From an uncultured Candidatus Saccharibacteria bacterium (GTDB lineage Bacteria; Patescibacteriota; Minisyncoccia; RBG-13-40-8-A; JAUWHN01), in assembly GCA_964449235.1 (NCBI GenBank), contig CAYVAX010000001.1, positions 20,814-84,813 of the forward strand: a stretch of DNA of 64,000 nt, written 5' to 3'. Below, piece after piece: positions 4,279 to 20,235 of the stretch. The notes below the pieces were generated by a model that worked only from the letters and a program-made list of their open reading frames with translations, was not told the origin of the DNA and made no database searches. The position numbers and the translations under genes are program-made. Positions within the stretch are counted from its first letter, which is position 1. Each line of letters starts with the position of its first letter.

Positions 4279-6624
4279 ATGAATAAAGCAAGAAAAAGTT
4301 GGAAAAAGTGGACTAACGCTGAAAAAAGAGAATTAAAAAGAATTTGTAAACAAGTAAGGTCATGGAAAGAATTAAGGTCAGAATTAGAAAAATCAAGAAT
4401 TCTTAAAGATAGAAACTATCGAAATGAGCTTCGTCGAAAGGCAATGCATCTTAATCTGACAAGGCACTTTACTGACCGCAGAGCTAAAGTTTCCAAAGAA
4501 AAAGAAGTTAGGAATAAACAGTTTCTATTCTCAAAATCAGAGAAGATTGCTCCTGCAGAAACATTCAAAATTGAAACAGGGGTTTGGGATAGAAAGAGCA
4601 CAAACATTGGTTTAATTTCACGAATTGACTTCGGTTCAAAAGGTTTTAGAGCGGGATTAATTAAGCTGGCACTCGAGAAAACTGCTCAGCATGGACTTCG
4701 TTTTAATATTCTCGTTGGAGGACTGGTAAATAAAAAAGTGCTTAAAAAGAAACTCCGAGATAGAATTAAAGAACTGAATGATCGTTTGCGAGGCTTGAGG
4801 CTTTCAGTAGAGGAAAAAAGAGAAGAAAGAGCACAAGAGAAAGATGATTTTTATTTCGAATGCGCAAGAGAGTTGGCAAGGTTAATTCCTCAGGTTAAAA
4901 AACCAAACGGTAAACCCGTAAAGCTGTATATGTTCACAAGCTCACCTTTTGATGGAAAAATTGGCGATGAAATTGCAAGAAGATTAGCAGCTTTAAGAAA
5001 AGACAATGATATTGTTTATTGGGGATTTAATCCTGAATATCCATTGCTGGTTAAACATGTAAATAAAACTTTATTTCCTGTAGTTTCTCAGCGACAATCA
5101 TGGATGAGATCAGACTACTATAGTACTCCTGTGCAGAGAGAATTAAAGGATCTTTTAAAGCGGTCTTCTATGGAGCTGTCGGATATATACACTGTGGGTT
5201 GTTTTGCTTCTAGCGTGTTCAAGCCGGAAGGAGATTCAAGAGTTCCCTACATGTCCTTGCCTGCAATACATAAACTAGACGAAACTCGAACATCGGAAAA
5301 TCAAATTGGAATACGTATTGTCAAGTTTCGAAAAAACAGAGAGCTTACTGTTAAAACTATTTCTTTTAAGGATTTGATTCGAGAAGAACGAAAATTGATT
5401 ACAATTCCTTCAAGTTGTTCTGAATTCCAATCTGCAATTATCAAACAGCTTAAGATAGCTCCTATGAGCAGCGGCGTGCTTGAATATCACCTAAAAGAAA
5501 ATCCCCGTTGGAGAAATATCACTCGTAAAGATGTAATCAAGGCCATTGAAGACCTGAAAAGGTTTAGAGCAGGTATTAACTTTGATAATGTCTCTAATCT
5601 TTTTGACTTCAGCTCTGAATGGTTTCAGAAAAAAGCACCTTATGAAATGCCTGAAGAGGATAAGCTTGCAGAAGATACATTTGTAGCTTGCTCTTGTCTG
5701 CATACAGGTGCTCCTCAAACTAATTACCGATTCATTGTTGAAGCTATCCCTAATTATATTATCCAAACTGGAGCTAAATATCTTGTATTGTCAGGAGATA
5801 TTATTCAAGGAACTTATCACCGCATGCTTGAAAAAGGGCAGATATATCGAGGTCTCAACTATACTTATCAGGAAAAACTTGCTGCAGGCTTAATGGGAAT
5901 CGTTATAACAAAAGTTTTTGAAACTCGTTTTAGTAAAGCTATTCGAAATAAAAAAGAATTAAATCAGGATGAATTGAAAAAATTAATCTCCGATTCTCTG
6001 GTCACATTTATCTACTTAGAAGGAAATCATGATGCCTGGGAACGATCCGGAAGTTTTGTTCCCTTGGTCGTTTTTGAACAAGACTTAATTAACTTTATAG
6101 TCAGAGAAATAAAGAAAACGCTCAAAAAATTTGATGTTCGTATTAACGGTGTACACGGCATTGTGGTGAATAAAATAATTCAAGATGATCCAATTGAACA
6201 AATATTCTATAGAACACCTTCGGGATTGGCTGTAAAAGTGGGACATCCTTATACCGGACGAAGTATTACTGCCAGCATTTCTGGAGAAAAATTCATGAAA
6301 ATGCATCTGGAATCTCATCTTAATTTTGTTGGTAATTGGCACGTAGGACTAAGTATGGAACACTTTGACCAAGAAATTGGGCAAAGAGTTTATGTCCAGC
6401 TACCTACAATCCAGAGATATACCTTGTTTGAAACTAACAAAATGAAAAAGACAGATTTCGGTGTTGGCATTTGTAGGGTTAAGTCTCTTAATGGACGAGT
6501 TGTAACTAGCGAAACTGGTTTTTACGGCGATCGCTTTTACGGAGACGCACAGAAAAATCTTAAGAAAATAGATAATGAAATTATCGACGAAATTCTAGTT
6601 AAACTTGGCGTACCTCTTTCTTAG
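4279..6624 (+). CDS. Hypothetical 781-aa protein: Lys/Arg-rich N-terminal region (~90 aa) and a C-terminal calcineurin-like metallophosphoesterase-like domain (Mre11/SbcD-like motifs, divergent)
   Basis: Motifs seen in translation: ...ACSCLHTGAP (motif I, with Cys in the usual Asp position), ...YLVLSGDIIQG (motif II, GD), ...IYLEGNHDAWE (motif III, GNHD), ...INGVHG..., ...GNWHVGLSMEHF (GHxH-like). A strong SD (aaggagg) lies 8 nt upstream of the ATG. Confidence 0.4.
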   Translation: MNKARKSWKKWTNAEKRELKRICKQVRSWKELRSELEKSRILKDRNYRNELRRKAMHLNLTRHFTDRRAKVSKEKEVRNKQFLFSKSEKIAPAETFKIETGVWDRKSTNIGLISRIDFGSKGFRAGLIKLALEKTAQHGLRFNILVGGLVNKKVLKKKLRDRIKELNDRLRGLRLSVEEKREERAQEKDDFYFECARELARLIPQVKKPNGKPVKLYMFTSSPFDGKIGDEIARRLAALRKDNDIVYWGFNPEYPLLVKHVNKTLFPVVSQRQSWMRSDYYSTPVQRELKDLLKRSSMELSDIYTVGCFASSVFKPEGDSRVPYMSLPAIHKLDETRTSENQIGIRIVKFRKNRELTVKTISFKDLIREERKLITIPSSCSEFQSAIIKQLKIAPMSSGVLEYHLKENPRWRNITRKDVIKAIEDLKRFRAGINFDNVSNLFDFSSEWFQKKAPYEMPEEDKLAEDTFVACSCLHTGAPQTNYRFIVEAIPNYIIQTGAKYLVLSGDIIQGTYHRMLEKGQIYRGLNYTYQEKLAAGLMGIVITKVFETRFSKAIRNKKELNQDELKKLISDSLVTFIYLEGNHDAWERSGSFVPLVVFEQDLINFIVREIKKTLKKFDVRINGVHGIVVNKIIQDDPIEQIFYRTPSGLAVKVGHPYTGRSITASISGEKFMKMHLESHLNFVGNWHVGLSMEHFDQEIGQRVYVQLPTIQRYTLFETNKMKKTDFGVGICRVKSLNGRVVTSETGFYGDRFYGDAQKNLKKIDNEIIDEILVKLGVPLS

Positions 6625-9204: not shown

Positions 9205-10168
9205 AAATATGAGCAAGAGAATAAGAACAATACTAATAATTGCTGATATTGGGTTAATTATTGTTTTTATTTGCCTGCTCTTTTTTTATTACCAACTCCA
9301 AGCTCCTTTAGATAAATCCGGAGAAGAAAAACCAATTATTATTGAAAGCGGAGAGGGATTAGAACAAATTGCTCATAAGCTAAAAACAAAACAAGTCATT
9401 AGAAGTGAATGGATATTTGTATACTATGCCTGGTTAAAAAATAAAGAAGATAAGCTGCAAGCAGGAAAATATATTTTAAGTTCTTCTATGAATATTCCTG
9501 AAATTGTCCGCAAAATAACTAGCGGGGAAATAGTTCAGGAGTGGGTTAAAGTAACTATTCCCGAGGGTTGGACCAATGAACAAATTAAACAACGCTTGGT
9601 GAGTCTGGAATTAATTTCTGCAAATACGGATATTCCTTTAAGCCTTCAGGGGTATCTTTTTCCAGACACTTATTATTTTGATAAAGATGTTTCTGCTGAT
9701 GAAATAATCTCGCGAATGAAAAACAACTTTAATAAAAAAATTGACCAACAATTAATTGAAGAAATAGAAAAGCAAGACAAAATACTTGAAGGTATTTTGA
9801 TTATGGCTTCACTTTTAGAAAGAGAGGTGAGAAGTTACGAGGATATGAAAATTGTTTCTGGTATTTTTTGGAAAAGACTAGAAAATAATTATCCCTTACA
9901 GTCTTGCGCTACCATTGCTTATATCCTAAAACAAGACAAGTGGAGATACAGCTATGAAGACACCCGCATTCAATCTCCGTATAATACGTATACAAACACA
10001 GGCCTGCCTCCAACTCCGATTAATAATCCCGGACTATTAGCAATTAAAGCTGCTGTTTATCCTCAACAAAGCGCATATAATTTCTTTCTTACTGATCCTG
10101 AAACTGGGCAAACCATTTTTTCTGAAACCTTAGAAGAGCATAATGCAAACAAGCAAAAATATTTCTAA
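9194..10168 (+). CDS. mltG: Endolytic murein transglycosylase MltG (YceG-like)
   Basis: N-terminal TM helix. YceG motifs: ...LLEREVRSYEDMKIVSGIFWKRLENNYPLQSCATIAYIL... and ...YNTYTNTGLPPTPINNPGLLAIKAAVYP... Confidence 0.8.
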   Translation: MKDKNMSKRIRTILIIADIGLIIVFICLLFFYYQLQAPLDKSGEEKPIIIESGEGLEQIAHKLKTKQVIRSEWIFVYYAWLKNKEDKLQAGKYILSSSMNIPEIVRKITSGEIVQEWVKVTIPEGWTNEQIKQRLVSLELISANTDIPLSLQGYLFPDTYYFDKDVSADEIISRMKNNFNKKIDQQLIEEIEKQDKILEGILIMASLLEREVRSYEDMKIVSGIFWKRLENNYPLQSCATIAYILKQDKWRYSYEDTRIQSPYNTYTNTGLPPTPINNPGLLAIKAAVYPQQSAYNFFLTDPETGQTIFSETLEEHNANKQKYF

Positions 10169-10172
10169 TTGT

Positions 10173-10201
10173 AATCTAAGGATTTGTGAAATCCTTAGAT
10201 T
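10173..10201 (+). terminator. 13-bp perfect hairpin (aatctaaggattt-gtg-aaatccttagatt) immediately after the mltG stop; terminator-like but lacks a U-tract
   Basis: Inverted repeat seen in sequence. Confidence 0.4.
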
Positions 10202-10452
10202 GATATTATCCACAGGGGTGGGATTTTTTATTCTTATTTTATATGGTAAAATTATGATAGAATCGTATAATGTTGGAGAATATAGCAACACAGTGAGAAA
10301 TTTATAAAATTTAACCGTTAAGAACGGTAGATTTAAATATTTATGTGGAATAATTTATTTATGTCAAGCATATATTTATTTAATAGAGACCCCGAAGCAA
10401 TCCCTGCGAAATGCTACGAGGTAAGGAGACCTCAGTGCCAGGGTAAAGCTCG

Positions 10453-10503
<51 letters not shown>

Positions 10504-10572
10504 AATTTCGCCAAAATTTTAATTTGGAGCCGATTTAACTTTGGTTAAGTTGGTTTTTTTATTATTTCAGCG

Positions 10573-11580
10573 ATGATTAATTTAAAGAAATTTTTAAGAA
10601 TTGGTTTTATATTTTTAATAATAGTGGCTTGGATTTATTCCGGCTGGCCGAGGATTTGGCAAGAACCATCAGTTCCGCCGAAAATTCAAGAAGTATGGGC
10701 AGACACTGCTTATTATGACCCAACTTCTGATGTTGCAACTGGATGGACCTGTAGCGGAACAGACTGCGGAACAGGTCATTACGCAGTTTTAGACGATGGT
10801 ATTAGACAATCTAATACGCCAAGCACAAGCGATGATTATATTAGTCAAGATTCTAACGACGGATATACCGATGAACATTCAGTAAGCTCGGTTAGCGAAA
10901 GCAATATTAATTATATTACTCTCTGGGTATATGTTTCTACGGGCAGCGATCATCAAATGAACATAAGTTTTCAAAACGATGGTTCGGAAGTTGCGTCAAA
11001 AACAGTAAATCCAGGCACTGCTGAGTCTTGGGTGTATGCTACCTGGGACAGTCCTTCAAGTATCGGGACTTTAACAGCAGAATTTACTAGCACAAAAAAC
11101 GGAGCAGGTCAACCGCAACAGGGATATGTCTATGCTTGGTATATTGAAGTAGATTATACTGCTGCGGCAAATGTTTCTGTATCTGTTTCTGACGGCATCG
11201 TTGCTTATGGCACAATGGCAGAAAATACATCAAAAAGCACTTTGGATTTAACTGATACGCAAACAGCTACCAATGATGGGGATGTAACTGAAGATTTTAA
11301 TATTAAGGGCCAGGATGCTACTGGAGGAGGATGCACTTGGACTTTGGCTTCAACCAACGGCTCTGATCAGTATGTTCACGAATTTTGCAATGACACTGAT
11401 TTAGATTGTTCATCTCCACCGACAAATTATACTGCCTTAACCACTTCTTATCAGGTATTAGATACGGGGATTGCGGCAAGCGGCACAGTTGATTTTCAGC
11501 TGTACCTTACCACGCCCAATCCATCAAGTTGTTATGGTGAGCAGTCAGTTGATGTTACTGTCCAAGCGGTTCAACAATAA
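10573..11580 (+). CDS. Secreted/surface Thr-Ser-Asp-rich protein, paralog A (signal anchor MINLKKFLRIGFIFLIIVAWIYSGW)
   Basis: 335 aa. The C-terminal ~150 aa align with the whole of the next gene product (shared ...VSVSVSDG.V.YGT.....T.DL.DTQTATNDG.VTEDFNI.GQ...G..WTLA.T.GSDQYVH.F......T.ALTTS.....G.A..GT.DF.L...TP.S..Y.EQS.DVTVQAV). Confidence 0.6.
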   Translation: MINLKKFLRIGFIFLIIVAWIYSGWPRIWQEPSVPPKIQEVWADTAYYDPTSDVATGWTCSGTDCGTGHYAVLDDGIRQSNTPSTSDDYISQDSNDGYTDEHSVSSVSESNINYITLWVYVSTGSDHQMNISFQNDGSEVASKTVNPGTAESWVYATWDSPSSIGTLTAEFTSTKNGAGQPQQGYVYAWYIEVDYTAAANVSVSVSDGIVAYGTMAENTSKSTLDLTDTQTATNDGDVTEDFNIKGQDATGGGCTWTLASTNGSDQYVHEFCNDTDLDCSSPPTNYTALTTSYQVLDTGIAASGTVDFQLYLTTPNPSSCYGEQSVDVTVQAVQQ

Positions 11581-11668
11581 AAAACGACGATTGGAAACTT
11601 CTTTGGTAAAAAGATAAAAATTAAAGGTCGAGCCAAAGGTTAAAAATTAAATTAACAAATTAAATTAA

Positions 11669-12181
11669 ATGTTTATGAAAAAATTATTTGCGACAATCGG
11701 CATTCTAACAATGATTGGGATGGTTGTTGCCGTAGGTGTAGGCGCGGCAGATGAAGCAACAGTTACAGCAACGGTAACGGTGCAGAACATTTCTGTTTCT
11801 GTTTCTGACGGAACCGTGCCGTATGGAACATTAGGACTAGATTCAACAGAAAATACTTGTGATTTGCCTGATACTCAAACTGCTACTAATGATGGTAATG
11901 TTACTGAAGATTTTAACATTAGAGGGCAAAATTCTACTGATGGTTGGACATTGGCTGCTACCGCAGGAAGCGATCAATATGTTCATAACTTTTTTGCTTC
12001 TAGTGACAGCTGTGGCGACGGAACCGGAACGGCTCTAACTACCAGCTCTACAGAACTAACTTCAGGTGTAGCAGTAGATGGCACTTATGATTTTGACCTG
12101 GAAGTTAATACCCCCACTTCTACAAGTTCTTACGACGAGCAATCAATTGATGTGACAGTTCAAGCGGTTGCCAGCAGCTAA
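11669..12181 (+). CDS. Secreted Thr-Ser-Asp-rich protein, paralog B (cleavable signal peptide ...AVGVGAADEA)
   Basis: 170 aa. Paralogous to the C-terminal half of the upstream gene, with a conserved W-T-L tripeptide and a conserved C-terminal DVTVQAV. Confidence 0.6.
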   Translation: MFMKKLFATIGILTMIGMVVAVGVGAADEATVTATVTVQNISVSVSDGTVPYGTLGLDSTENTCDLPDTQTATNDGNVTEDFNIRGQNSTDGWTLAATAGSDQYVHNFFASSDSCGDGTGTALTTSSTELTSGVAVDGTYDFDLEVNTPTSTSSYDEQSIDVTVQAVASS

Positions 12182-12224
12182 TTTGAGAAAGGTTGAATAA
12201 TTGATTAATTTATTTTAAGGGTTT

Positions 12225-12839
12225 ATGAAAAAAGCCATAGTTGTAATTTTATTTGTGGCGCTATTTTTGCCCATTTTGGCATTTGCCAGAATCGGAGTTG
12301 GCGTTGGCACAGGGAAAATAGTGGTTGACCAACCGTTAAAACCCGGTCTTATTTACACCTTGCCGTCTTTATCGGTTTTAAACACAGGCGACGAGCCGGG
12401 AGAATACGAAGCTTCTATTGAATATCACGAAGGCCAGGAAACAAGAGATGATATGGGTTTGAAGCCGGCAAAAGAATGGTTTAGTTTTGAACCGGCTAAT
12501 TTCCATTTGGAACCGGGCCAATCCCAGCAAGTCCAAATTAAATTGTCTTTGCCGATTAAGGGCGTAAAGCCCGGAACTTATTTTGCCTACCTTGAGGGAC
12601 ACCCGGTTCAAAAAGATGTGACAGGCCAAACAAGAATTGGCGTGGCGGCCGCGGCAAAACTTTATTTTACTGTTGCGCCGGCTAATATCTTTCAGGGAAT
12701 TTATTATCGGTTTATCAGTTTGTATTCCCGTTATCATCCCTGGGACACTATAGTTCTGGTGTTTATTTTACTTGCCATTGCGTTTCGGTTTGTCAGCAAG
12801 CGCTTCAAATTTCAGATTGCGAAAAAATCCCGGCAGTAG
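12225..12839 (+). CDS. Surface protein: signal peptide + beta-sandwich-like ectodomain + C-terminal TM anchor
   Basis: 204 aa. N-terminal MKKAIVVILFVALFLPILAFA; ...VLNTGDEPGEYEASIEYHEGQ...; C-terminal hydrophobic helix TIVLVFILLAIAF, then a basic tail RFVSKRFKFQIAKKSRQ. Confidence 0.55.
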   Translation: MKKAIVVILFVALFLPILAFARIGVGVGTGKIVVDQPLKPGLIYTLPSLSVLNTGDEPGEYEASIEYHEGQETRDDMGLKPAKEWFSFEPANFHLEPGQSQQVQIKLSLPIKGVKPGTYFAYLEGHPVQKDVTGQTRIGVAAAAKLYFTVAPANIFQGIYYRFISLYSRYHPWDTIVLVFILLAIAFRFVSKRFKFQIAKKSRQ

Positions 12840-12886
12840 AACGCTATCACGTTCACTGCGCGGCAAGTAGATTTTTATTAGAATGA

Positions 12887-13888
12887 ATGAAACAAGAAAT
12901 TTATATAACAGCAATAATTTTTGTTGTATTTTCCGCAATTATAGGGGGAGGATTTTTAAGTTTTTCGCCAGCTGTTGCAGAAGAATCAACTACTGTTGAA
13001 GCGACCGCTAAAATTTCGATTTGCGGAAATGATGTTGCAGAAGGCGGGGAACACTGCGACAATGAGGATCTAAAAGGAAAAGCTTGCTCAGATTTAGGGT
13101 TTAGCAGTGGAGATTTGTCCTGTTCCGGTTCCTGCGAATTTATAACTTCTGCCTGCACCACAAGCGCAGAAGCAACAGATGAAACCGACTTTACTTCTTC
13201 TTCTGGCGGCGAAACCACTATTACCAATAACAGCAATCAAATAAAAATTACGCTGTCGGAAAATTTTTATACTGCCGATGTAAGATTACATGGTTTTTCC
13301 TACGCAAATAATTATTTTTCTTCCAGCAAGCCCGCTCTTTCAGGTAAAAGTTTCATCGGCAAAACCTATGACCTTGTTTTTATAGACACAAGCGCGAATG
13401 CGCTCTCAACGCTTTCTCAGTCGGCCACTCTTGTTTTAACATACACTGACGCAAATGTAAGCGGAATAAACGAAAGCTCTTTGGCGCCGTATCAATGGGG
13501 AAGCAGTGATTCATCGTGGCAATTGATTTCCGGAGCAACGGTTAATACAACAGACAACACAGTTACTTTTTCCACTGCTCAATTCAGCTCTTTTGCGCTT
13601 TTTGGAGAAGAAGAAGAGGAGGAAGAAGAGGAATCGTCTGGAGGAGGAGGAGGCGGAGGAAGCATTTCAAGAAGGACTCCTGAAATAGTTCCCAAACCCA
13701 AACCAAAGCCCGAGTCCAAGCCAAGTCCGGATTTTAATAAGGATAGCAAGGTGAATATCGTTGATTTAAGCATTATGCTTTATTGGTTTGGGAAAACAGG
13801 GCCGGAGATTATCCTTTATGACTTGCGCCAGGACAATAAAATAGACATTGCCGATGTTTCCATTCTTTTTTATTACTGGAAGGACTAA
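12887..13888 (+). CDS. Secreted modular protein: signal anchor, Cys-rich repeat (ICGNDVAEGGEHCDNED...C...C), beta-rich domain, poly-E/poly-G/(PK)n linker, C-terminal dockerin-like module
   Basis: C-terminus DFNKDSKVNIVDLSIMLYWFG...DLRQDNKIDIADVSILFYYW: two Ca-loop-plus-helix repeats, ~31 residues apart, with D1/N3/D5/D12 spacing. The linker is EEEEEEEEESSGGGGGGGS...PKPKPKPESKPSP. Confidence 0.6.
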   Translation: MKQEIYITAIIFVVFSAIIGGGFLSFSPAVAEESTTVEATAKISICGNDVAEGGEHCDNEDLKGKACSDLGFSSGDLSCSGSCEFITSACTTSAEATDETDFTSSSGGETTITNNSNQIKITLSENFYTADVRLHGFSYANNYFSSSKPALSGKSFIGKTYDLVFIDTSANALSTLSQSATLVLTYTDANVSGINESSLAPYQWGSSDSSWQLISGATVNTTDNTVTFSTAQFSSFALFGEEEEEEEEESSGGGGGGGSISRRTPEIVPKPKPKPESKPSPDFNKDSKVNIVDLSIMLYWFGKTGPEIILYDLRQDNKIDIADVSILFYYWKD

Positions 13889-13915
13889 TGAAATTTTTAA
13901 TGTTCAATTTTTAAT

Positions 13916-16729
13916 ATGCCAATAGCGTTATCTAAAAAATTAATTGCTTTAACACTTTTATTTTTTTCTGTTTTTATAACTTTATTGCCTGTTTGCGCGC
14001 AGGCAAGTGCTGTTTCCGTGGATATTAATTTAAGCGCAAATAATGTCGCGGCGGGATCAGAAGTGGAAGTAAGAATATTAATGACATCTCGCGAACCAGC
14101 AAACGCTTTTGATGTTACTTTGAAATATTCGCCAGAGATTTTTGAGCTTAGCCGGGCTTCAACCCAGCGTTCTATTGTTTCTTTTTGGAAATCTCTTCCC
14201 TTGGAAGATAAGGAGGGAGTGATACGATTTATTGGCGGAATGATTGAGCCGTTTTCAGGCAAAAACGGCGAGATTATAACCTTAGTTTTTAGGACTCGCG
14301 ATTTTGGTTCTGCTGATTTTGCAATTAAAAAAGCGGATTTTGCTTTAGCTGACGGTAAAGGTACGCTTGTTCGGGCAGGAGAAGCACGTTCTGGCGTTAT
14401 TGTTGCAGAAAGAGGTCAGCTAGCAAGCTCGGATCTTAAACCGTCTGCTCCGCAAATTTCTGAAGCAATAGTAACTAAGGACTCTGCCACCAGTAATCCA
14501 ATTATTTTAATAAAAACCCTAGATGACGGCGGAGTGAAAGAAATACTTGTGCGCAGCCGTTCATGGTTCTTATGGAGCGATTGGCAAAAAGCGCAATTGA
14601 CAGCCTCGATTCCAAAATACGCCTGGGCAATTCAACTTAAAGCATTTAACTGGGAAGGCAAGGAAGCCGAAACTATTGTATATCGCTGGCACATTATGGC
14701 ATTGAAATTTTTAGCAATTCTCGCTGCTTTAGCTGTTTTATGGTATATAGTACGGCGATTCGCAAAGAAGCGTGTTGTAATTGCGTTGGCAATTATTTTG
14801 GCGGGAATTGCGTTTTCAGGAACCGCCAACGCGGCTGTTATTTCCTTAAGTCCGGCAAGCGGAACTTTTCATGTTGGAGGCACTTTTGAAGCGCAAATCC
14901 TGCTTGACACTGAAGGCGAGAGCGTAAACGCTTTGGATATGCATTTGCTTTTTCCGCCGGATAAACTTCAGGTTGTTTCTTCTGGTGCTGGAAAATCCAT
15001 TGTAGATATTTGGACTAGCACTCCGAGATTTGACAATCAGCAGGGGAAAATATCTCTATCAGGAGGAATACCAAATGGTACTTTAGTGAATAAAGGGCTG
15101 ATTGCAACAATTGTTTTTCGAGTGAGGCAAGTTGGAAGCGCAGCAGTACGTTTTAGTGATGATACTCGCATTCTTTTGAACGACGGCAAAGGCACAGATA
15201 CTCTGCGGAAAACTCAAGGCGCTGTATATCAGATTGTTCTTCCAGCTCCGGCAGGGCCGATTGTGGCTTCTGAAACTCATCCCGACCAAACGCAATGGCA
15301 TGCTGTTTCAGATGTTATTTTGCGCTGGACAGCGCTATCCGCGGTTGGCGGCTACAGTTACATATTGGATAATTCTCCTATGACTGTTCCTGATAATATA
15401 GTGGATTCCACGAAAGATTCCGTCTTTTATAAAGATTTGTCATCAGGCACGCATTATTTTCATATTAAAGCCCAAAATTCCGACAATGCATGGGGTGGCA
15501 TAACTCATTTTGCAATAAATATTGACATTAATCCTCCCGCTAAATTTCCAATAGAAGTCCAGACCAGCCAACGCACCACTAGCCGGAACGTGGTATTTTC
15601 TTTTTCAACCACTGATGCTCATTCCGGCATTGATAAATATGAATATCAAATTATTCCTTTGCAACCCGCAAGCGTTGAACAGGGTTCTTTTTTCTTTGTA
15701 GAAACGCAGAGTCCTCAGGCGATGAATTTAGATATCGGAACATACGATATTATTGTAAGGGCGTACGACAAAACAGGCAATTTTCAAGAAAGCCAGGCAA
15801 GAGTACGAATAATGACGCCATTTGTATTTTGGGCTACTAACAAATATCTTTTAGGGGGTTTGCTTCTGCTTGTGATTTTATTTGCTGTTATAGCTCGGAG
15901 AATTTATGTTCGTCACCGCGAAATTGAGAAAAAACGAGACCAAAAAGAAATGCCCGATTCAGTGCAAAAAAAACTTAAGGATCTTGATAAATATCAGAAG
16001 AAATACGGTGCTTTGGTTCTTTTAATTTTAATTTTATTTGGGTCTTTATTGTTTGTGCCACAGGTCAGTGCGCAATCTTCGGAACTTGCTCCGCCAATTA
16101 TCACCACAGCGCCGCAACATATTTCCAATGAAGAAATTTTTTACCTCGGAGGCACAGCAGGTCTACCAAATGCAAAAATCATTATTTATATACAGAACTT
16201 GAGCACTGGCGAGATATTCAGTTATTCGGAGACTGCCGGAGAGAAAGGAGAATGGTTTTATCGTCACCCCTCGTTCCTTTCCGAAGGGAAATATATGATT
16301 TGGGTTCAATCCATGCTGGGAGATATGGTTAGTCCGCCAAGCCCTCAAATTAATGTTAGGGTTGTTTCGACAGCCATTCAATTTGGGGCCTCACGGTTGA
16401 GCTATGAAATGTTTTATTTACTGTGCGCCTTGATTCTGCTGGTAGCGCTTCTGGGTCTTTTAGCGTTTATTGTATTTCATGCCAAAAGCGGTCGGAAAAA
16501 ACGCAAAATGTTAATGAAAGAAATTCGTGAGGCCGAAAGAGCAGTGAAATCAGGATTTGATAAACTTAGGCATGATATTAAGGTTGAGCTAGCAGTAATC
16601 AAAAGAGCCAAGCTAAGCAAGGAGTTGTCCCGCGAGGAAGAAAAGAAAGAAAAACATCTACTTAAAGACCTGAAAGCAATTGAGCGCCATATTAGCAAAG
16701 AGGTGGAAGATGTGGAGAGAGCTGCTTGA
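13916..16729 (+). CDS. 937-aa polytopic surface scaffold with two cohesin-like modules, further Ig/Fn-like ectodomains, and a C-terminal cytoplasmic coiled coil
   Basis: Signal peptide ...LLPVCAQASA. Module 1: VSVDINLSANNVAAGSEVEVRILMTS...AFDVTLKYSPEIFEL...GVIRFIGGMIEPFSGKNGEIITLVFRTRDFGSADFAIKKADFALADGKGT. Module 2: ...ISLSPASGTFHVGGTFEAQILLDTEGESVNALDMHLLFPPDKLQVV...GKISLSGGIPNGTLVNKGLIATIVFRVRQVGSAAVRFSDDTRILLNDGKGT. There are six hydrophobic helices in total, three of them followed by AxA-like sites. Confidence 0.6.
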   Translation: MPIALSKKLIALTLLFFSVFITLLPVCAQASAVSVDINLSANNVAAGSEVEVRILMTSREPANAFDVTLKYSPEIFELSRASTQRSIVSFWKSLPLEDKEGVIRFIGGMIEPFSGKNGEIITLVFRTRDFGSADFAIKKADFALADGKGTLVRAGEARSGVIVAERGQLASSDLKPSAPQISEAIVTKDSATSNPIILIKTLDDGGVKEILVRSRSWFLWSDWQKAQLTASIPKYAWAIQLKAFNWEGKEAETIVYRWHIMALKFLAILAALAVLWYIVRRFAKKRVVIALAIILAGIAFSGTANAAVISLSPASGTFHVGGTFEAQILLDTEGESVNALDMHLLFPPDKLQVVSSGAGKSIVDIWTSTPRFDNQQGKISLSGGIPNGTLVNKGLIATIVFRVRQVGSAAVRFSDDTRILLNDGKGTDTLRKTQGAVYQIVLPAPAGPIVASETHPDQTQWHAVSDVILRWTALSAVGGYSYILDNSPMTVPDNIVDSTKDSVFYKDLSSGTHYFHIKAQNSDNAWGGITHFAINIDINPPAKFPIEVQTSQRTTSRNVVFSFSTTDAHSGIDKYEYQIIPLQPASVEQGSFFFVETQSPQAMNLDIGTYDIIVRAYDKTGNFQESQARVRIMTPFVFWATNKYLLGGLLLLVILFAVIARRIYVRHREIEKKRDQKEMPDSVQKKLKDLDKYQKKYGALVLLILILFGSLLFVPQVSAQSSELAPPIITTAPQHISNEEIFYLGGTAGLPNAKIIIYIQNLSTGEIFSYSETAGEKGEWFYRHPSFLSEGKYMIWVQSMLGDMVSPPSPQINVRVVSTAIQFGASRLSYEMFYLLCALILLVALLGLLAFIVFHAKSGRKKRKMLMKEIREAERAVKSGFDKLRHDIKVELAVIKRAKLSKELSREEEKKEKHLLKDLKAIERHISKEVEDVERAA

Positions 16730-16842
16730 CAAGATTTTATATAATGTTAAACTGATAACAGTCGTAGACAGTGGGCAATTTTTTGCATAAGTCCCGCCGA
16801 GACAATAATTAATTTTAGATTCTAATTTTTAGACTCTAATTC

Positions 16843-16868
16843 GTCTGCGACTATGCAGACATTTTTTT
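16843..16868 (+). promoter_or_regulatory. Hairpin (gtctgc-gactat-gcagac) plus T7 tract directly abutting the rplJ start codon; candidate rplJ leader attenuator/regulatory structure
   Basis: Seen in sequence. There is no SD between the structure and the ATG. Confidence 0.3.
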
Positions 16869-17381
16869 ATGCTAAACAAACAACAAAAAAAACAATTAGT
16901 AGAAGAACTATCTGATAAACTCAAACGTCAAAATATTTTGATTTTTACTGATTTTAGGGGATTAAAGGTGGATGAGATGCAAGAACTGAGAGAAAAGCTC
17001 AGGGAAGCGGATGGTGAGTATAAGGTGGCCAGAAAAACATTAATAAAGTTGGCTCTAGAAAAAGCAGACAAGGAAATGGATATGAATCAGTTTGAAGCTT
17101 CTCTAGCTTTGACTTTTGGTTTTTCAGACCCGATTATTCCTACTAAAATCATCAGTAAATTTTCCAAAGAGCATAAAGAGTTAGGCGTTTTAGGAGGAAT
17201 GATGGATGACAAGGTTTTAAGCGCAGAAGAAATTAAAGAACTGGCCAAGATTCCTTCTCAGGAAGAATTATTAGCAAAATTAGTAGGCAGCATTAAATCT
17301 CCAATCAGTGGATTTGTTAATGTCTTAAAGGGTAATATTAGAAACTTAATTGGTGTATTAAGCGCAATAGATAATAAATAA
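16869..17381 (+). CDS. rplJ: 50S ribosomal protein L10
   Basis: 170 aa. MLNKQQKKQLVEELSDKLKRQNILIFTDFRGLKVDEMQELREKLREADGEYKVARKTL... is typical of L10. Confidence 0.85.
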   Translation: MLNKQQKKQLVEELSDKLKRQNILIFTDFRGLKVDEMQELREKLREADGEYKVARKTLIKLALEKADKEMDMNQFEASLALTFGFSDPIIPTKIISKFSKEHKELGVLGGMMDDKVLSAEEIKELAKIPSQEELLAKLVGSIKSPISGFVNVLKGNIRNLIGVLSAIDNK

Positions 17382-17460
17382 GCAACTTCTTAATTTTGGG
17401 ATTTGTCAGCTTCATTTAATAACGGGCTGACAAGCTAATTCTTAAGAAGTTAATATAAAA

Positions 17461-18018
17461 ATGGCTGAAGAAAAAAAAGACGAACAAAAAAAAGCTTCTG
17501 AAGAAGCTGGACAAGAAAAGACTGAGGAGTCTAAACAAAAGCCTGAGCAAAAAGAACCTAAAAAAGAAGAGCCCAAGCAGGAATCAAAAAAAGAAGAAAA
17601 AAAAGTAGCTGATAAGGCGGAAAACAAAGAAGTGAAAGTACCGGCTAAATTTAAAAAATTGGTTGACGAAATTGAGCAAATGAGTGTTTTGGATTTAGCA
17701 GAATTGGTTAAACTTTTGGAAGAAAAATTTGGAGTTAGTCCTATGGCCGCAGTAGCAGCTCCAGCAGCAGGAACAGCAGGCAGTGGAGAAGAGGAAGGTG
17801 AAGAAAAAAGTGTTTTTAACATTGAACTAAAAGATGCAGGCGCTAAAAAGATTGACGTTATTAAAGCGCTTCGAAAAATCATGGACAAAGGATTAAAAGA
17901 AGTCAAGGGATTAGTTGATGATGCGCCTCAGGTTGTAAAAGAAAATGTTAAAAAGGAAGAGGCTGAAGAAATTAAGAAAAAGCTAGAAGAAGCAGGAGCA
18001 ACTGTAGAATTGAAATAA
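17461..18018 (+). CDS. rplL: 50S ribosomal protein L7/L12 with a ~60-aa Lys/Glu-rich N-terminal extension
   Basis: The core ...[40 protein letters not shown]...[70 protein letters not shown] aligns with L12. The preceding [11 protein letters not shown]...[16 protein letters not shown] is low-complexity. Confidence 0.85.
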
Positions 18019-18040
18019 TATATTTAATTTCTTGTTAATC

Positions 18041-18067
18041 AAAAAAGCCGTATTTACGGCTTTTTTG
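18041..18067. terminator. Bidirectional intrinsic terminator between convergent rplL and the 18091-20235 gene
   Basis: aaaaaagccgt-att-tacggctttttt. Confidence 0.7.
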
Positions 18068-18090
18068 CTATTATTAATACAATCTAAGAT

Positions 18091-20235
18091 CTATAATTTG
18101 AGTTTAAATACTTTTTTTTCACATAAAAAATAAATTTCTTTTTCATTTCCAGTAACCCAAAAATCAGAAAGTCGGTTAAATTCTTTATTCACATACTGAT
18201 TTATTATCTCTCCTTTCCTGTTTAAAACAATTAAGCGCCTGTTCTCTGGATCGGATATATATAAATGCTTAAAATCAGATTCAACAAATAATTTGTTATT
18301 CCCGGATAATTGCTGATTTAATTTTAATGGTATTTGGCGAACTTCTTTTCCTTGAAAATACTCAGTTATTGTTCCTTGGGAATTGAGAACATAGATTGCG
18401 CCATCAATAGCCATGGATTGAGCAGTCTTTAATCCTTCTTCAGGCTGCGATAACCAACTTTTTCCATTAATGGTTTCTGCCTGTATTGACGATAAAGGAT
18501 ATTTTATAATCTCACCCTGCTGGGAATTTAATATGTAGAAATTAGAAAGAAACCTTCCCAAGCTTTGAATTTTTTCAATAGAGATTTCCGGGCTTAACAG
18601 GTAAGCTTCATGTTCTTTTGTGGCGCTGTTGTAAATATAAGCTTTGCCGCTTTGTCCAAACAAGATTATTTGTCCAGAATTTAAAGAAATCATTTTCCTT
18701 AATTCGTCTTTTGCGGAAATGAATATTAGGGTTAAAGAATTTTTTTCTTCTGTACTCAAATCTGACTTATAAAGAATGCCTGAATCCAATTCGTAAAAAT
18801 ATAGACTATTTTCTGCTTTACTAATTCCTGCAGGATTAACAATAAATCCAGTCTTAGAAAAATTTAAAACCTCCTCGAGCTGATTCACCCTAATTACGTT
18901 ATTAATGCTGTCTTGCTGATTTTGATATTTTTCCTCTAAGGTAAAGGCTCTGGCAATGACCTGCTCATTGTTTTTTAAGGATGCTTGTCGGGCATGATCA
19001 ATAAGACTAGAAAGCAAGGACTGGTTTCTTTCTATTAATGCTCGGGCCTTATCTTGCTGTTGGTAAATTAAGGCAGAATCTATCTTTTTTTGAATTGCTT
19101 GAACTTTTTCAGCTAACTGATTAAATGCATGCAGCTTGGTTAAATAATTAATCTTTTGAACAGTAAAATAGGGGAGAATTAAAATTAATAAAATTAAAAT
19201 TAATGAAATAATAAATGCAGGTTTGTTTTGATCTTTTAAATAATAATATTTTTTTCTAATTTTGTATTTTTCATTTAGTTTTTGAGGAATTTTGCGAGTG
19301 GTTATTGTTATCCGCTGGCAAACTGCAGTTTTTCCTATTGCTCTGGTTACTGGCCTCAAAAGCCTGAATCCTTTGCCCAGGAGTATAAATATAACTTTGA
19401 ATGTGGTTCCGATTTTTAAAATTATAGGTCTAAGCTTTCCAATGCTAATTCTTTTTTGCTTGGTTATTTTTTGTTCAATTTCAGGGCTAGTTTTTACTAT
19501 CTGAGGAGCAGTATCAGTAACAAACACTGGTTTTGCCTCTAATACCAGACTGACTAATGGAGGCTTAATTGATTTAGCCCTGGCTAAATTTTCAAAATTC
19601 AATATTATCCGATTACAATCTTTTGTAGAAAGCGCTTTCAGCTCTTTCAGGGAAGCAAGAGTTAGAATGTTTTTAGTGCCTAATACTAGTTTATCCCCGG
19701 GTATAATTTTTCCACTAGCAATATTATTAAATGTTTTTAGGGGAGGAACTTTTTCTGAGTCTGTGAATTTTTTTTCAATGTGGCTTACGCCCCCTTCTCT
19801 AAACAACTTAATCATTATATCTCCAGCCTGAGTGACATGAAGCGTGTTTTCGGTTAAAACACCACAAACAAAATGAAAATTGCCCATCCATTCTGTGTTT
19901 CCTTTTTCAGCAAAGTCGGCTAAATAAAGGTTTGCCTTGTTAAGGCTGGCCTCTAAAGCTTCTGCCCCGGAACGTTTAAAATCAGAATAAAATTCACGCT
20001 TAATTACCGAAATTAGCAGATTTAAAAGAAAGTCAGTGCTTTTATACTTGTTCTTGGGAATATTATCTATTTTTCCCAACATAAAAAGAGTACCCAATTT
20101 GGCCTCCTCAATGTTTTTTGGCTCATAGACAAAAAAATCATAAACACAGTCTGGATGTTTAGTTTTTCCTATCCCAGGGCTTTCTACTGGCCTAATAAAC
20201 TCTTTAGAATAAAATTGAAGATTATCTTCTGACAT
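18091..20235 (-). CDS. Hypothetical bitopic membrane protein: ~330-aa cytoplasmic N-domain (weak PP2C/PPM-like motifs, tentative), one TM helix, ~360-aa extracytoplasmic coiled-coil plus beta-propeller-like repeat region
   Basis: TM helix KPAFIISLILILLILILPYFTV. N-domain ...FHFVCGVLTENTLHVTQAGDIMIKLFREGG... resembles PPM motifs only loosely. The C-terminus has repeated ...LYISD...RLIVLN... beta-strand patterns. Confidence 0.35.
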   Translation of the reverse strand: MSEDNLQFYSKEFIRPVESPGIGKTKHPDCVYDFFVYEPKNIEEAKLGTLFMLGKIDNIPKNKYKSTDFLLNLLISVIKREFYSDFKRSGAEALEASLNKANLYLADFAEKGNTEWMGNFHFVCGVLTENTLHVTQAGDIMIKLFREGGVSHIEKKFTDSEKVPPLKTFNNIASGKIIPGDKLVLGTKNILTLASLKELKALSTKDCNRIILNFENLARAKSIKPPLVSLVLEAKPVFVTDTAPQIVKTSPEIEQKITKQKRISIGKLRPIILKIGTTFKVIFILLGKGFRLLRPVTRAIGKTAVCQRITITTRKIPQKLNEKYKIRKKYYYLKDQNKPAFIISLILILLILILPYFTVQKINYLTKLHAFNQLAEKVQAIQKKIDSALIYQQQDKARALIERNQSLLSSLIDHARQASLKNNEQVIARAFTLEEKYQNQQDSINNVIRVNQLEEVLNFSKTGFIVNPAGISKAENSLYFYELDSGILYKSDLSTEEKNSLTLIFISAKDELRKMISLNSGQIILFGQSGKAYIYNSATKEHEAYLLSPEISIEKIQSLGRFLSNFYILNSQQGEIIKYPLSSIQAETINGKSWLSQPEEGLKTAQSMAIDGAIYVLNSQGTITEYFQGKEVRQIPLKLNQQLSGNNKLFVESDFKHLYISDPENRRLIVLNRKGEIINQYVNKEFNRLSDFWVTGNEKEIYFLCEKKVFKLKL

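What the first reader, a model, noticed from the sequence alone, without database searches (positions are those of the whole stretch)
13916..16729. Scaffold protein with ectodomains separated by TM hairpins and internal signal-peptide-like sites
Seen: six hydrophobic helices. Helix 1 (LLFFSVFITLLPVCAQASA), helix 3 (...ILAGIAFSGTANAAV) and helix 5 (...LFGSLLFVPQVSAQSS) each end in an AxA-like signal-peptidase motif and are each followed by a beta-rich module (cohesin 1, cohesin 2 + Ig/Fn-like, Ig-like). Helices 2, 4 and 6 are followed by short basic stretches (RRFAKKR, RRIYVRHRE, HAKSGRKKRK). The C-terminus is a ~90-aa charged coiled coil. Inference: either a beads-on-a-membrane topology, with three ectodomains tethered by TM hairpins and a cytoplasmic coiled-coil tail, or a polyprotein processed by signal peptidase into three secreted or anchored pieces. 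Both are unusual for a cohesin scaffold.
Basis: partly seen in the sequence, partly recalled or inferred. Interest (0 to 1): 0.5.

Follow-up and report, generated by a model that had tools for sequence, protein, structure and literature searches.

The report
Three membrane proteins fused into one
This 937-residue gene from an ultra-small (Patescibacteria/CPR) bacterium joins three ordinary "signal peptide – surface domain – membrane anchor" proteins head to tail; relatives encode them as two or three separate genes, and the two internal signal peptides still carry conserved cutting sites, so the cell probably cuts the protein back into three pieces of a surface complex that holds a dockerin-tagged partner.

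Summary

The gene is one end of a fusion series:
- Most relatives encode module 1 as a separate ~300-aa gene just upstream of a ~680-aa core (modules 2+3).
- A fully syntenic relative (L086) has the two genes overlapping by 26 nt.
- Some lineages (L089-L091) also encode module 3 separately, with its own Met and signal peptide.

The fusion is not an artefact. The identical protein occurs in independent assemblies, and diverged fused orthologs exist.

At the internal site before module 3, position -1 is Ala in 67/78 sequences and -3 is V/A/T/S/I in 70/78, within otherwise variable sequence. The hydrophobic core of that helix matches N-terminal signal peptides and is shorter than the anchors.

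A signal-peptidase-processed polyprotein is favoured (about 0.55). An uncleaved "beads on a membrane" protein remains possible. A gene with a C-terminal dockerin precedes the cohesin genes in 65/66 loci.

The parts
13916..16729 (+). Whole ORF, 937 aa plus stop: three concatenated type-I membrane-protein precursors (module 1, module 2, module 3 with cytoplasmic tail)
13916..14005 (+). Helix 1, the N-terminal signal peptide (aa 1-30). Putative cleavage at AQA|SA after A30, or ASA|VS after A32
   Evidence: low pLDDT at 20-30
14012..14404 (+). Cohesin-like module 1 (aa 33-163)
   Evidence: AF2 beta-sandwich; cross-hit to the module-2 HMM, i-E 3e-15; homologous to the separate upstream gene of L001 (E 4e-23)
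14456..14683 (+). Small Ig-like domain of module 1 (aa 181-256)
14687..14761 (+). Helix 2, the stop-transfer membrane anchor of module 1 (aa 258-282), followed by the basic RRFAKKR
14765..14833 (+). Helix 3, an internal signal peptide (aa 284-306: KKR n-region, VVIALAIILAGIAF core, SGTANA|A). It is homologous to the N-terminal signal peptide of the ~680-aa core proteins
   Evidence: pLDDT below 50 and not modelled as a helix
14834..15238 (+). Cohesin module 2 (aa 307-441)
15260..15811 (+). Stalk of module 2: an Fn3/Y_Y_Y-like domain (aa 449-536) and a Big_13-like Ig domain (aa 546-632)
15842..15904 (+). Helix 4, the stop-transfer membrane anchor of module 2 (aa 643-663)
15905..16003 (+). Conserved basic cytoplasmic loop (aa 664-696). 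It corresponds to the C-terminal tail of module 2 plus the n-region of module 3's signal peptide (ELP..QL.ELK.Y..KYG)
16004..16072 (+). Helix 5, an internal signal peptide (aa 697-719) ending PQVSA|QSS. Across the family -1 is Ala in 67/78 sequences
   Evidence: pLDDT below 50
16094..16399 (+). Ig-like ectodomain of module 3 (aa 727-828)
16412..16480 (+). Helix 6, the membrane anchor of module 3 (aa 833-855)
16481..16726 (+). Conserved cytoplasmic helical (coiled-coil-like) tail (aa 856-937)
12887..13888 (+). Upstream partner gene, 333 aa: signal peptide, Cys-rich segment, beta domain, acidic/Gly/PK linkers, and a C-terminal dockerin (aa 282-333, nt 13730-13885)
   Evidence: Pfam Dockerin_1 at 18 bits, below threshold. 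48% identical to the dockerin of L001. Partner proteins in related loci pass the Pfam threshold. A C-terminal-dockerin ORF lies directly upstream of the cohesin genes in 65/66 loci

Best explanation
The gene is an evolutionary head-to-tail fusion of three adjacent genes. Each ancestral gene encodes a type-I membrane protein precursor: a signal peptide, a beta-sandwich ectodomain, a membrane anchor and a basic cytoplasmic stub.

Proposed sequence of events:
1. The Sec machinery threads the chain so that helices 1, 3 and 5 start translocation and helices 2, 4 and 6 stop it. All cohesin and Ig modules end up outside. The two basic loops and the helical tail stay in the cytoplasm. This step is well supported.
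2. Signal peptidase I then cuts after A30/A32, A306 and A719. This regenerates the three subunits that relatives make from separate genes. This step is inferred from conservation and has not been shown. The products would be:
   - cohesin-1-Ig with a membrane anchor,
   - cohesin-2-Fn3-Ig with a membrane anchor and a cytoplasmic stub,
   - Ig with a membrane anchor and a conserved cytoplasmic helical tail.
3. The first two fragments each keep the cleaved signal helix as a C-terminal hairpin.
4. The cohesins hold the C-terminal dockerin of the secreted protein encoded immediately upstream. That protein's N-terminal part varies between lineages. The result would be a conserved membrane 'socket' that displays a variable surface protein. 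This step is inferred from synteny and from what cohesin-dockerin pairs are known to do.

Fusion guarantees 1:1:1 production of the three subunits.
For: Fusion series:
- About 110 of 120 homologs are 660-700 aa and align from query residue ~284, which is exactly helix 3, to 937.
- In 68 loci a ~290-320-aa module-1 gene sits directly upstream of the core, for example with a GTGA stop/start overlap in L001.
- L086 has the same gene order as the window (PCMT, YceG ... L10, L12) but has separate genes of 299 and 666 aa that overlap by 26 nt.
- L091, L090 and L089 encode module 3 as its own gene with Met, signal peptide and AxA. L089 has an in-frame stop 5 codons upstream of the Met.
- 23 of 147 representative clusters are such standalone forms.

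Fusion is real:
- The identical protein is found in SRR7048218 and SRR7048220 as well as in an NCBI record.
- Fused orthologs occur in L003, L006 and L007.

Topology:
- K+R bias in the window protein and across 81 orthologs.

Cleavage:
- At the internal site, -1 is A in 67/78, -3 is V/A/T/S/I in 70/78, +1 is Q/E in 62/78 and never P. Position -2 is variable, and the surrounding segment is gappy and unconserved.
- This is at least as conserved as the N-terminal signal-peptide site of the same proteins, where -1 is A in 56/78.
- All fused forms keep AxA before cohesin-2.
- The hydrophobic core of helix 5 has median 15 residues, the same as N-terminal signal peptides (15; p=0.48). It is shorter than TM4 (19; p=1e-10) and TM6 (22; p=5e-23).
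- AlphaFold gives pLDDT below 50 and no helix for helices 3 and 5, but confident helices for 2, 4 and 6.
- Fused and unfused forms are interleaved within one clade, as expected if the two states are functionally equivalent.
- Patescibacteria encode signal peptidase I and the Sec system, shown for strain TM7x (10.1101/2022.03.25.485537).

Partner:
- A dockerin ORF lies upstream in 65/66 loci.
- Dockerin_1 scores above the Pfam threshold in 5/6 partners tested.
- The cohesin fold is confirmed.
Against: - No proteomic or N-terminal data exist, so cleavage is inferred only from conservation.
- Internal signal peptides that follow a tight hairpin (the loop is only about 8 aa between helices 2 and 3) may be poor signal-peptidase substrates.
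- In the window protein alone the hydrophobic cores of helices 3 and 5 (18 and 16 residues) are not clearly shorter than TM2 and TM4 (15 and 16). The length argument holds only at family level.
- 3 of 78 sequences have a non-permissive residue (V, N or H) at the aligned -1 position.
- No signal peptidase I gene was seen in the window or the fetched loci by a motif search. This is expected for such small samples of each genome.
- Cohesin-dockerin binding, and which cohesin binds, is untested.
- The role of the conserved cytoplasmic tail is unknown.
Confidence: 0.55

Rival explanations
1. Uncleaved polytopic protein ('beads on a membrane'). Only the first signal peptide, or none, is removed. Helices 3 and 5 persist as transmembrane segments paired with helices 2 and 4. 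The three ectodomains therefore stay covalently tethered through two membrane hairpins. The AxA motifs are relics of the ancestral signal peptides.
For: - The topology is the same as in the favoured model.
- Fusion could have been selected precisely to tether the subunits.
- In the window protein the cores of helices 3 and 5 (18 and 16 residues) are long enough to span a membrane.
- AxA-like motifs after transmembrane helices are common and are not always cut (general knowledge).
Against: - A relic motif should decay. Instead, -1 Ala is kept in 86% of 78 sequences that have diverged to about 40% identity, inside an otherwise unconserved and length-variable linker. It is kept as well as at the true N-terminal site.
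- The core length of helix 5 matches signal peptides, not anchors.
- AlphaFold finds no packing or helix for helices 3 and 5.
- Fused and split states interchange within one clade.
Confidence: 0.35
2. Assembly, frameshift or annotation artefact. Two or three real genes were joined by a sequencing or assembly error.
For: Most orthologs have module 1 as a separate gene. The closest syntenic relative (L086) has overlapping separate genes.
Against: - The identical 937-aa protein is encoded in two independent Logan assemblies as well as the NCBI contig.
- Fused orthologs with 47-65% core identity occur in unrelated samples (L003 from JGI, L006, L007 from Zambryskibacteria, and P0007, P0008).
- The junction differs from L086 by a substantial rearrangement of the overlap region, not by a single-base indel.
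- The module 2-module 3 junction is in one ORF in 81 distinct orthologs.
Confidence: 0.02
3. Separate products arise by internal translation initiation, not by proteolysis. Ribosomes would start again in front of helix 3 and helix 5.
For: - An in-frame ATG (M683, nt 15950) lies 14 codons before helix 5.
- Ancestral genes were translationally coupled, with overlapping stop and start.
Against: - M683 is not conserved: the family has ELP where the window has EMP.
- There is no in-frame ATG or GTG before helix 3, only a TTG inside the hydrophobic core.
- No Shine-Dalgarno-like sequence is evident at either site.
- This model would not explain the conserved -3/-1 motif.
Confidence: 0.03

Closest known systems
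Non-cellulosomal cohesin-dockerin pairs (for example the Archaeoglobus fulgidus cohesin, PDB 2xdh, and the Clostridium perfringens GH84C/GH33 cohesins, PDB 2w1n and 2vo8)
   Same: - A cohesin followed by an Fn3 domain, as in 2w1n.
- A partner protein that ends in a type-I-like dockerin.
- No cellulose-degrading context.
   Different: - Here the cohesins sit on type-I membrane proteins anchored by transmembrane helices.
- They are arranged in a strictly conserved dockerin-cohesin-cohesin gene cassette across Patescibacteria.
- The cohesin proteins are fused through internal signal peptides.
Cellulosome anchoring scaffoldins (ScaC, OlpA/OlpC, SdbA; PDB 4uyp, 3ul4, 4dh2)
   Same: - They are cell-surface proteins whose cohesins dock dockerin-bearing partners.
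   Different: - No SLH or sortase anchoring, no CBM, and no glycoside-hydrolase partners were found.
- There is one cohesin per module, not a string of cohesins on one exported chain.
- The modules are separated by membrane hairpins.
Bradyrhizobium japonicum FbcH cytochrome b/c1 polyprotein (cited from my own knowledge: Thony-Meyer et al., Cell 1989 and PNAS 1991; not retrievable in the paper library)
   Same: A bacterial membrane polyprotein in which a downstream subunit keeps its signal peptide as an internal segment and is released by cleavage at that internal signal.
   Different: - FbcH has one internal site that joins two respiratory subunits.
- Here there are two internal sites that join three surface-protein precursors.
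- All fusion states (3, 2 and 1 genes) still exist among relatives.
- Cleavage has not been shown here.
Viral structural polyproteins processed by host signal peptidase (flavivirus prM-E-NS1, bunyavirus Gn-Gc). General knowledge; bunyavirus example in PMC6784171
   Same: Alternating stop-transfer and internal signal sequences. Ectodomains are separated by membrane hairpins and cut on the external or lumenal side at (-3,-1) sites.
   Different: Those are eukaryotic ER systems processing viral proteins. They have no evolutionary relationship to this protein.

Membership tests
Cohesin module (Pfam PF00963) | Beta-sandwich (jelly-roll) fold of about 140 aa that superposes on solved cohesins | tested here: met
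   [not shown]
Cohesin module (Pfam PF00963) | Sequence match to the Pfam cohesin profile | tested here: inconclusive
   The window protein gives no PF00963 hit at E<0.1. About 50 of 120 aligned homologs carry a precomputed PF00963 hit, and sources name them 'cohesin domain-containing protein'. A family profile hits the ScaC cohesin 4uyp_A only weakly (E 0.071).
Cohesin-dockerin system | A partner protein that carries a dockerin (duplicated Ca-binding F-hand segment) | tested here: met
   The window partner (12887-13888) scores 18 bits against Dockerin_1, below the cut-off of 22.9. Its homologs in related loci score 23.4-33.5 bits in 5 of 6 tested. A C-terminal dockerin ORF lies directly upstream of the cohesin genes in 65/66 loci.
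Cohesin-dockerin system | Physical, Ca-dependent cohesin-dockerin binding | not testable with these tools
   No multimer prediction or binding assay was available. Binding is inferred only from conserved gene neighbourhood.
Cellulosomal scaffoldin | Several cohesins on one exported chain, together with a CBM and dockerin-bearing carbohydrate-active enzymes | tested here: not met
   There are no CBM or glycoside-hydrolase domains in the protein, its partner or its neighbours. The cohesins lie on separate membrane-anchored modules.
Sec-type signal peptide cleaved by signal peptidase I (applied to helices 3 and 5) | Positively charged n-region, hydrophobic core of about 10-18 residues, polar c-region with small residues at -3 and -1, and no Pro at +1 | tested here: met
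   Helix 3 reads KKR / VVIALAIILAGIAF / SGTANA|A. Helix 5 reads KKYG / ALVLLILILFGSLLFV / PQVSA|Q. Across the family, -1 is A in 67/78, -3 is V/A/T/S/I in 70/78 and +1 is never P. Core length has median 15, the same as the N-terminal signal peptides.
Sec-type signal peptide cleaved by signal peptidase I (applied to helices 3 and 5) | Located at the N-terminus of the precursor | tested here: not met
   Both are internal in this protein. They are, however, positionally homologous to N-terminal signal peptides in split orthologs.
Sec-type signal peptide cleaved by signal peptidase I (applied to helices 3 and 5) | Actual cleavage by the enzyme | not testable with these tools
   No proteomic data and no SignalP-type predictor were available. 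The enzyme is known in Patescibacteria (strain TM7x) but was not found in this window.
Membrane polyprotein processed at internal signal peptides (FbcH-like or viral-like) | Alternating stop-transfer and start-transfer helices, with ectodomains on the trans side | tested here: met
   Six helices with alternating flanks. The positive-inside bias holds in the window protein and in 81 orthologs.
Membrane polyprotein processed at internal signal peptides (FbcH-like or viral-like) | The same subunits are encoded by separate genes in related organisms | tested here: met
   Three-gene, two-gene and one-gene forms of the same cassette were all found.

The most novel reading that the evidence does not exclude
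A natural bacterial membrane polyprotein. One Sec-inserted precursor would be cut at two internal signal peptides into three type-I subunits. In the commoner two-gene form, found in hundreds of Patescibacteria species, there would be one internal cut. The subunits would assemble a conserved cohesin 'socket' with a conserved cytoplasmic helical tail. This socket would display a lineage-variable dockerin-tagged surface protein, possibly a cell-surface or host-contact organelle of these episymbiotic bacteria. The coexistence of 3-, 2- and 1-gene forms would make it a natural experiment on how signal peptides survive gene fusion.
Probability: 0.35. Interest if true: 0.7.

Novelty: new variant of a known kind. 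Interest (0 to 1): 0.55.

Why it matters
Internal signal-peptidase sites that turn one bacterial gene into several membrane proteins are textbook for viruses in eukaryotic cells. In bacteria they are known from very few cases.

Here the arrangement is conserved. The two-gene form gave 515 confirmed matches in species-representative genomes. All intermediate fusion states survive, so the hypothesis is directly testable and evolutionarily informative.

The work also defines an uncharacterised cassette that is nearly universal in Paceibacteria-type CPR bacteria: a dockerin protein, one or two cohesin membrane proteins, and an Ig domain with a membrane anchor and helical tail. No curated family exists for it, and no literature was found in the library searched. 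It is a candidate for how these reduced, surface-dependent bacteria mount variable proteins on their envelope.

In practice, annotators should not treat the 680-aa and 937-aa proteins as simple multi-pass membrane proteins.

Tried and rejected
- **Family scans.** Pfam and NCBIfam on the protein gave only sub-threshold Y_Y_Y, Big_13 and OmpL47-barrel hits. The 170-aa and 204-aa neighbours gave nothing.
- **Literature.** Searches for cohesin or dockerin in Patescibacteria, CPR or Parcubacteria, and for bacterial internal-signal polyproteins or FbcH, found nothing relevant.
- **Signal peptidase I gene.** Motif searches in the window and in 88 loci found none. This is uninformative given how little of each genome was sampled.
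- **Transcription signals and RNA families.** Promoter and terminator scans were at chance level, and Rfam found nothing in 10000-18200.
- **Lipoprotein signal in helix 1 (LLPVC).** Considered and rejected: Val at -1 is atypical for a lipobox, and the Cys is absent in L086.
- **Internal start at M683.** Considered and rejected: it is not conserved.
Full report
**1. The observation**

The ORF at 13916-16729 (+) exists and encodes 937 aa.

Hydropathy analysis gives six hydrophobic helices, at about aa 9-27, 260-278, 287-301, 645-663, 699-717 and 835-853.
- Helices 1, 3 and 5 are followed by PVCAQA|SA, GTANA|AV and PQVSA|QSS.
- Helices 2, 4 and 6 are followed by RRFAKKR, RRIYVRHRE and HAKSGRKKRK.
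- The last ~83 residues are highly charged (26 K+R, 17 D+E) and are modelled as two long helices.

An AlphaFold2 model built on 78 homologs has mean pLDDT 81.8. It shows confident beta domains at 33-163, 181-256, 307-441, 449-536, 546-632 and 728-828.

Pfam does not see a cohesin in this sequence itself. About 50 of 120 homologs do carry PF00963, and several sources name them 'cohesin domain-containing protein'. The description is therefore accurate.

**2. What the homologs show**

A search of 5.8 billion proteins gave 128 hits.
- About 110 of the 120 listed are 660-700 aa and align to query residues ~284-937. They begin exactly at helix 3, which is their N-terminal signal peptide.
- Only P0002, P0003, P0006, P0007 and P0008 share the six-helix form of about 940 aa.

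Gene neighbourhoods explain this pattern.
- In L001 a 297-aa gene homologous to module 1 (E 4e-23) ends in a GTGA overlap with the start of the 674-aa core.
- Module HMMs were mapped onto 85 loci from species-representative genomes; the genome scan itself gave 515 confirmed pattern matches.
- That mapping shows a separate upstream cohesin gene in 68 loci and fusion in only L003, L006 and L007, besides the window. Modules 2, 3 and the tail lie in one ORF in every intact case.
- Record titles place the loci in Zambryski-, Kaiser-, Nomura-, Jorgensen-, Lipton-, Colwell-, Harrison-, Staskawicz-, Brenner-, Specht-, Veblen- and Doudnabacteria and in 'Paceibacterota'. These are all Patescibacteria/CPR.

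**3. The fusion is real and recent**

L086 has the same gene order as the window (PCMT, YceG, three small genes, dockerin gene, then L10, L7/L12). It nevertheless carries module 1 (299 aa) and the core (666 aa) as separate genes that overlap by 26 nt. The junction DNA differs by more than a single-base indel.

The identical 937-aa protein is encoded in two independent read-set assemblies and in an NCBI record. In a neighbour-joining tree of the core region the fused forms fall mainly in one clade, with the unfused P0004, P0005 and P0009 nested among them. The junction has therefore toggled between fused and split.

**4. The older junction also exists in split form**

An exhaustive search with residues 690-937 found 732 relatives at E<=1e-3.

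Among the 147 retrieved representatives:

| Class | Count |
|---|---|
| Core-type (module 2 + module 3) | 55 |
| Other N-terminal architectures | 29 |
| Standalone (Met, one hydrophobic helix, AxA, Ig domain, membrane anchor, helical tail) | 23 |

Standalone examples:
- P0155: MKKLTITLWISALLISVPLFVSA|VENS...
- P0163: ...LMAPVVFA|QELS...

Genomic checks support these as real separate genes.
- L089 has an in-frame stop five codons upstream of the Met.
- L090 and L091 show the upstream module-2 gene ending in its cytoplasmic tail just before the module-3 gene.
- L091 carries the whole cassette as four genes: dockerin 195 aa, cohesin-Ig-TM 391 aa, cohesin-Fn3-Ig-TM 452 aa, and Ig-TM-tail 251 aa.

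The same system therefore exists in 3-gene, 2-gene and 1-gene forms. The window holds the most fused one.

**5. Topology**

In the window protein, K+R density is as follows:

| Segment | K+R density |
|---|---|
| Loop between helices 2 and 3 | 0.62 |
| Loop between helices 4 and 5 | 0.37 |
| C-terminal tail | 0.31 |
| Ectodomains | 0.05-0.12 |

Across 81 orthologs the medians of K/R residues per 15 residues are 4 after TM4, 5 before helix 5, 1 after helix 5 and 5 after TM6.

**6. Cleaved or not?**

Four comparative observations favour cleavage.

(a) Motif conservation.
- At the end of helix 5 the aligned -1 residue is Ala in 67/78 sequences, with S, T or G in 8 more.
- Position -3 is V/A/T/S/I in 70/78. 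Position -2 is free (R, F, Q, L, Y, N). Position +1 is Q/E in 62/78 and never Pro.
- The surrounding linker is gappy and unconserved.
- This is the classical (-3,-1) signal-peptidase pattern. It is kept at least as well as at the proteins' real N-terminal site, where -1 is Ala in 56/78.

(b) Fused forms. All of them keep the motif in front of cohesin-2.

(c) Hydrophobic core length.

| Helix | Median core length | Comparison with helix 5 |
|---|---|---|
| Helix 5 | 15 | - |
| N-terminal signal peptides | 15 | p=0.48 |
| TM4 | 19 | p=1e-10 |
| TM6 | 22 | p=5e-23 |

(d) AlphaFold. It gives no helix and pLDDT below 50 for helices 3 and 5, but confident helices for 2, 4 and 6.

The enzyme is plausible in this phylum. 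The cultivated Patescibacterium TM7x has two predicted signal peptidase I genes plus SecA/SecY (10.1101/2022.03.25.485537).

Points against cleavage:
- In the window protein alone the helix lengths do not discriminate.
- The hairpin between helices 2 and 3 is tight.
- No signal peptidase gene lies in the sampled DNA.

I put cleavage at about 0.55-0.6 and the uncleaved polytopic form at about 0.35. Internal translation starts are unlikely: M683 is not conserved, and no start codon precedes helix 3.

**7. What the complex does**

In 65 of 66 loci with enough upstream sequence, a same-strand ORF that ends in a dockerin lies directly upstream of the first cohesin gene. Dockerin_1 passes Pfam's threshold in five of six partners tested. 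The window's partner scores 18 bits and is 48% identical to L001's over the dockerin segment. It is the only dockerin in the 64-kb window.

The N-terminal parts of the partners vary in length, with median 295 aa and up to 450 aa. Their domains vary too: Fn3 with Big_6-like Ig domains, DUF4215 Cys-rich repeats, or none recognised.

The core is well conserved. This includes its cytoplasmic loop (ELP..QL.ELK.Y..KYG) and its tail (EAEESIRRGFAVLRRDIEAEL...).

The most economical model is a conserved membrane socket of two cohesins that displays a variable dockerin-tagged surface protein, with a third subunit providing a conserved cytoplasmic helical domain. This model is inferred and has not been tested. 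It is not a cellulosome: no CBM or glycoside hydrolase is involved.

**8. Comparison and novelty**

The closest known systems are these:
- Non-cellulosomal cohesin-dockerin pairs and anchoring scaffoldins. They share the fold and the docking logic but differ in anchoring and context.
- The Bradyrhizobium FbcH cytochrome b/c1 polyprotein (from my own knowledge) and viral glycoprotein polyproteins. They share the logic of internal signal peptides between stop-transfer anchors but are unrelated in sequence.

No curated family and no paper in the searchable library describes this cassette. I rate it a new variant of known kinds.

It is of moderate interest. It is real, conserved and unusual, and it can be tested by looking for specific N-terminal peptides. 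The key mechanistic step is still inferred.

Noticed in passing
window 10573-11580 (+) and 11669-12181 (+); also L003 4734-5288: The C-terminal half of the 335-aa protein is a paralog of the 170-aa secreted protein. Shared motifs are VSVSDG.V.YGT, TQTATNDG.VTEDFNI.GQ, a W-T-L motif, SDQYVH.F and EQS.DVTVQA. From memory only, and together with the next gene, this recalls WxL/Csc-type surface clusters of Firmicutes. Pfam and NCBIfam give no hit.
   Followed up: partly
window 12225-12839 (+): A 204-aa protein with a signal peptide, a beta domain starting RIGVGVGTG, and a C-terminal membrane anchor with a basic tail. It is conserved next to the 170-aa gene in L003 (200 aa) and L086 (203 aa) but not in most other loci. 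It is therefore a clade-specific addition to the cassette. Function unknown.
   Followed up: partly
window 12887-13888 (+), aa ~45-92: The dockerin partner carries a Cys-rich segment (CGNDVAEGGEHCDNEDL...CSGSCEFITSAC). This resembles the DUF4215 repeats that Pfam detects in the L022 partner (E 6e-14). It is followed by poly-Glu, poly-Gly and PKPKPKPE linkers before the dockerin.
   Followed up: partly
dockerin partner ORFs directly upstream of the cohesin genes in L058 (2628-4004), L035 (4549-5844), L067 (1866-3191), L020 (4221-5525), L050 (4569-5930), L028 (1337-2719) and L001 (6317-7099): Many partner proteins share an N-terminal motif with two SS.NF/Y..L repeats that ends ...GQS..QTAIGKS.S..FQLWSGFQYF. 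It is followed by an Fn3 domain, a poly-Gly linker and Ig-like domains. The N-terminal motif has no Pfam match.
   Followed up: no
L047 11796-13538; L050 12031-14981; L065 4815-5906: L047 has a second, 581-aa paralog with the cohesin-stalk module and the cytoplasmic tail but without the module-3 Ig domain. L050 has two further dockerin-bearing ORFs downstream. In L065 the dockerin partner itself contains a module-3-like Ig domain.
   Followed up: no
L023 2700-4751: The core gene is broken into three ORFs of 221, 258 and 177 aa. This is either a pseudogene or an assembly error. It is the only non-intact core among the 85 loci.
   Followed up: no
window 10526-10557 and 16843-16860 (+): Terminator-like hairpins with T-runs lie just before the 335-aa gene and just before rplJ. 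They bracket 10573-16729 as a possible transcription unit. The overall scan is no better than chance (8 found against 7.0 expected).
   Followed up: no
window 18091-20235 (-) and 4279-6624 (+): Two large proteins (714 and 781 aa) have no Pfam match. The 714-aa protein is conserved in position in L086 (727 aa, same strand arrangement).
   Followed up: no
P0182 (5344 aa) and P0223 (1517 aa), representative proteins: The module-3 Ig domain recurs 13 and 10 times in tandem in these giant proteins. The domain is therefore also used as a repeat unit in large surface proteins.
   Followed up: no
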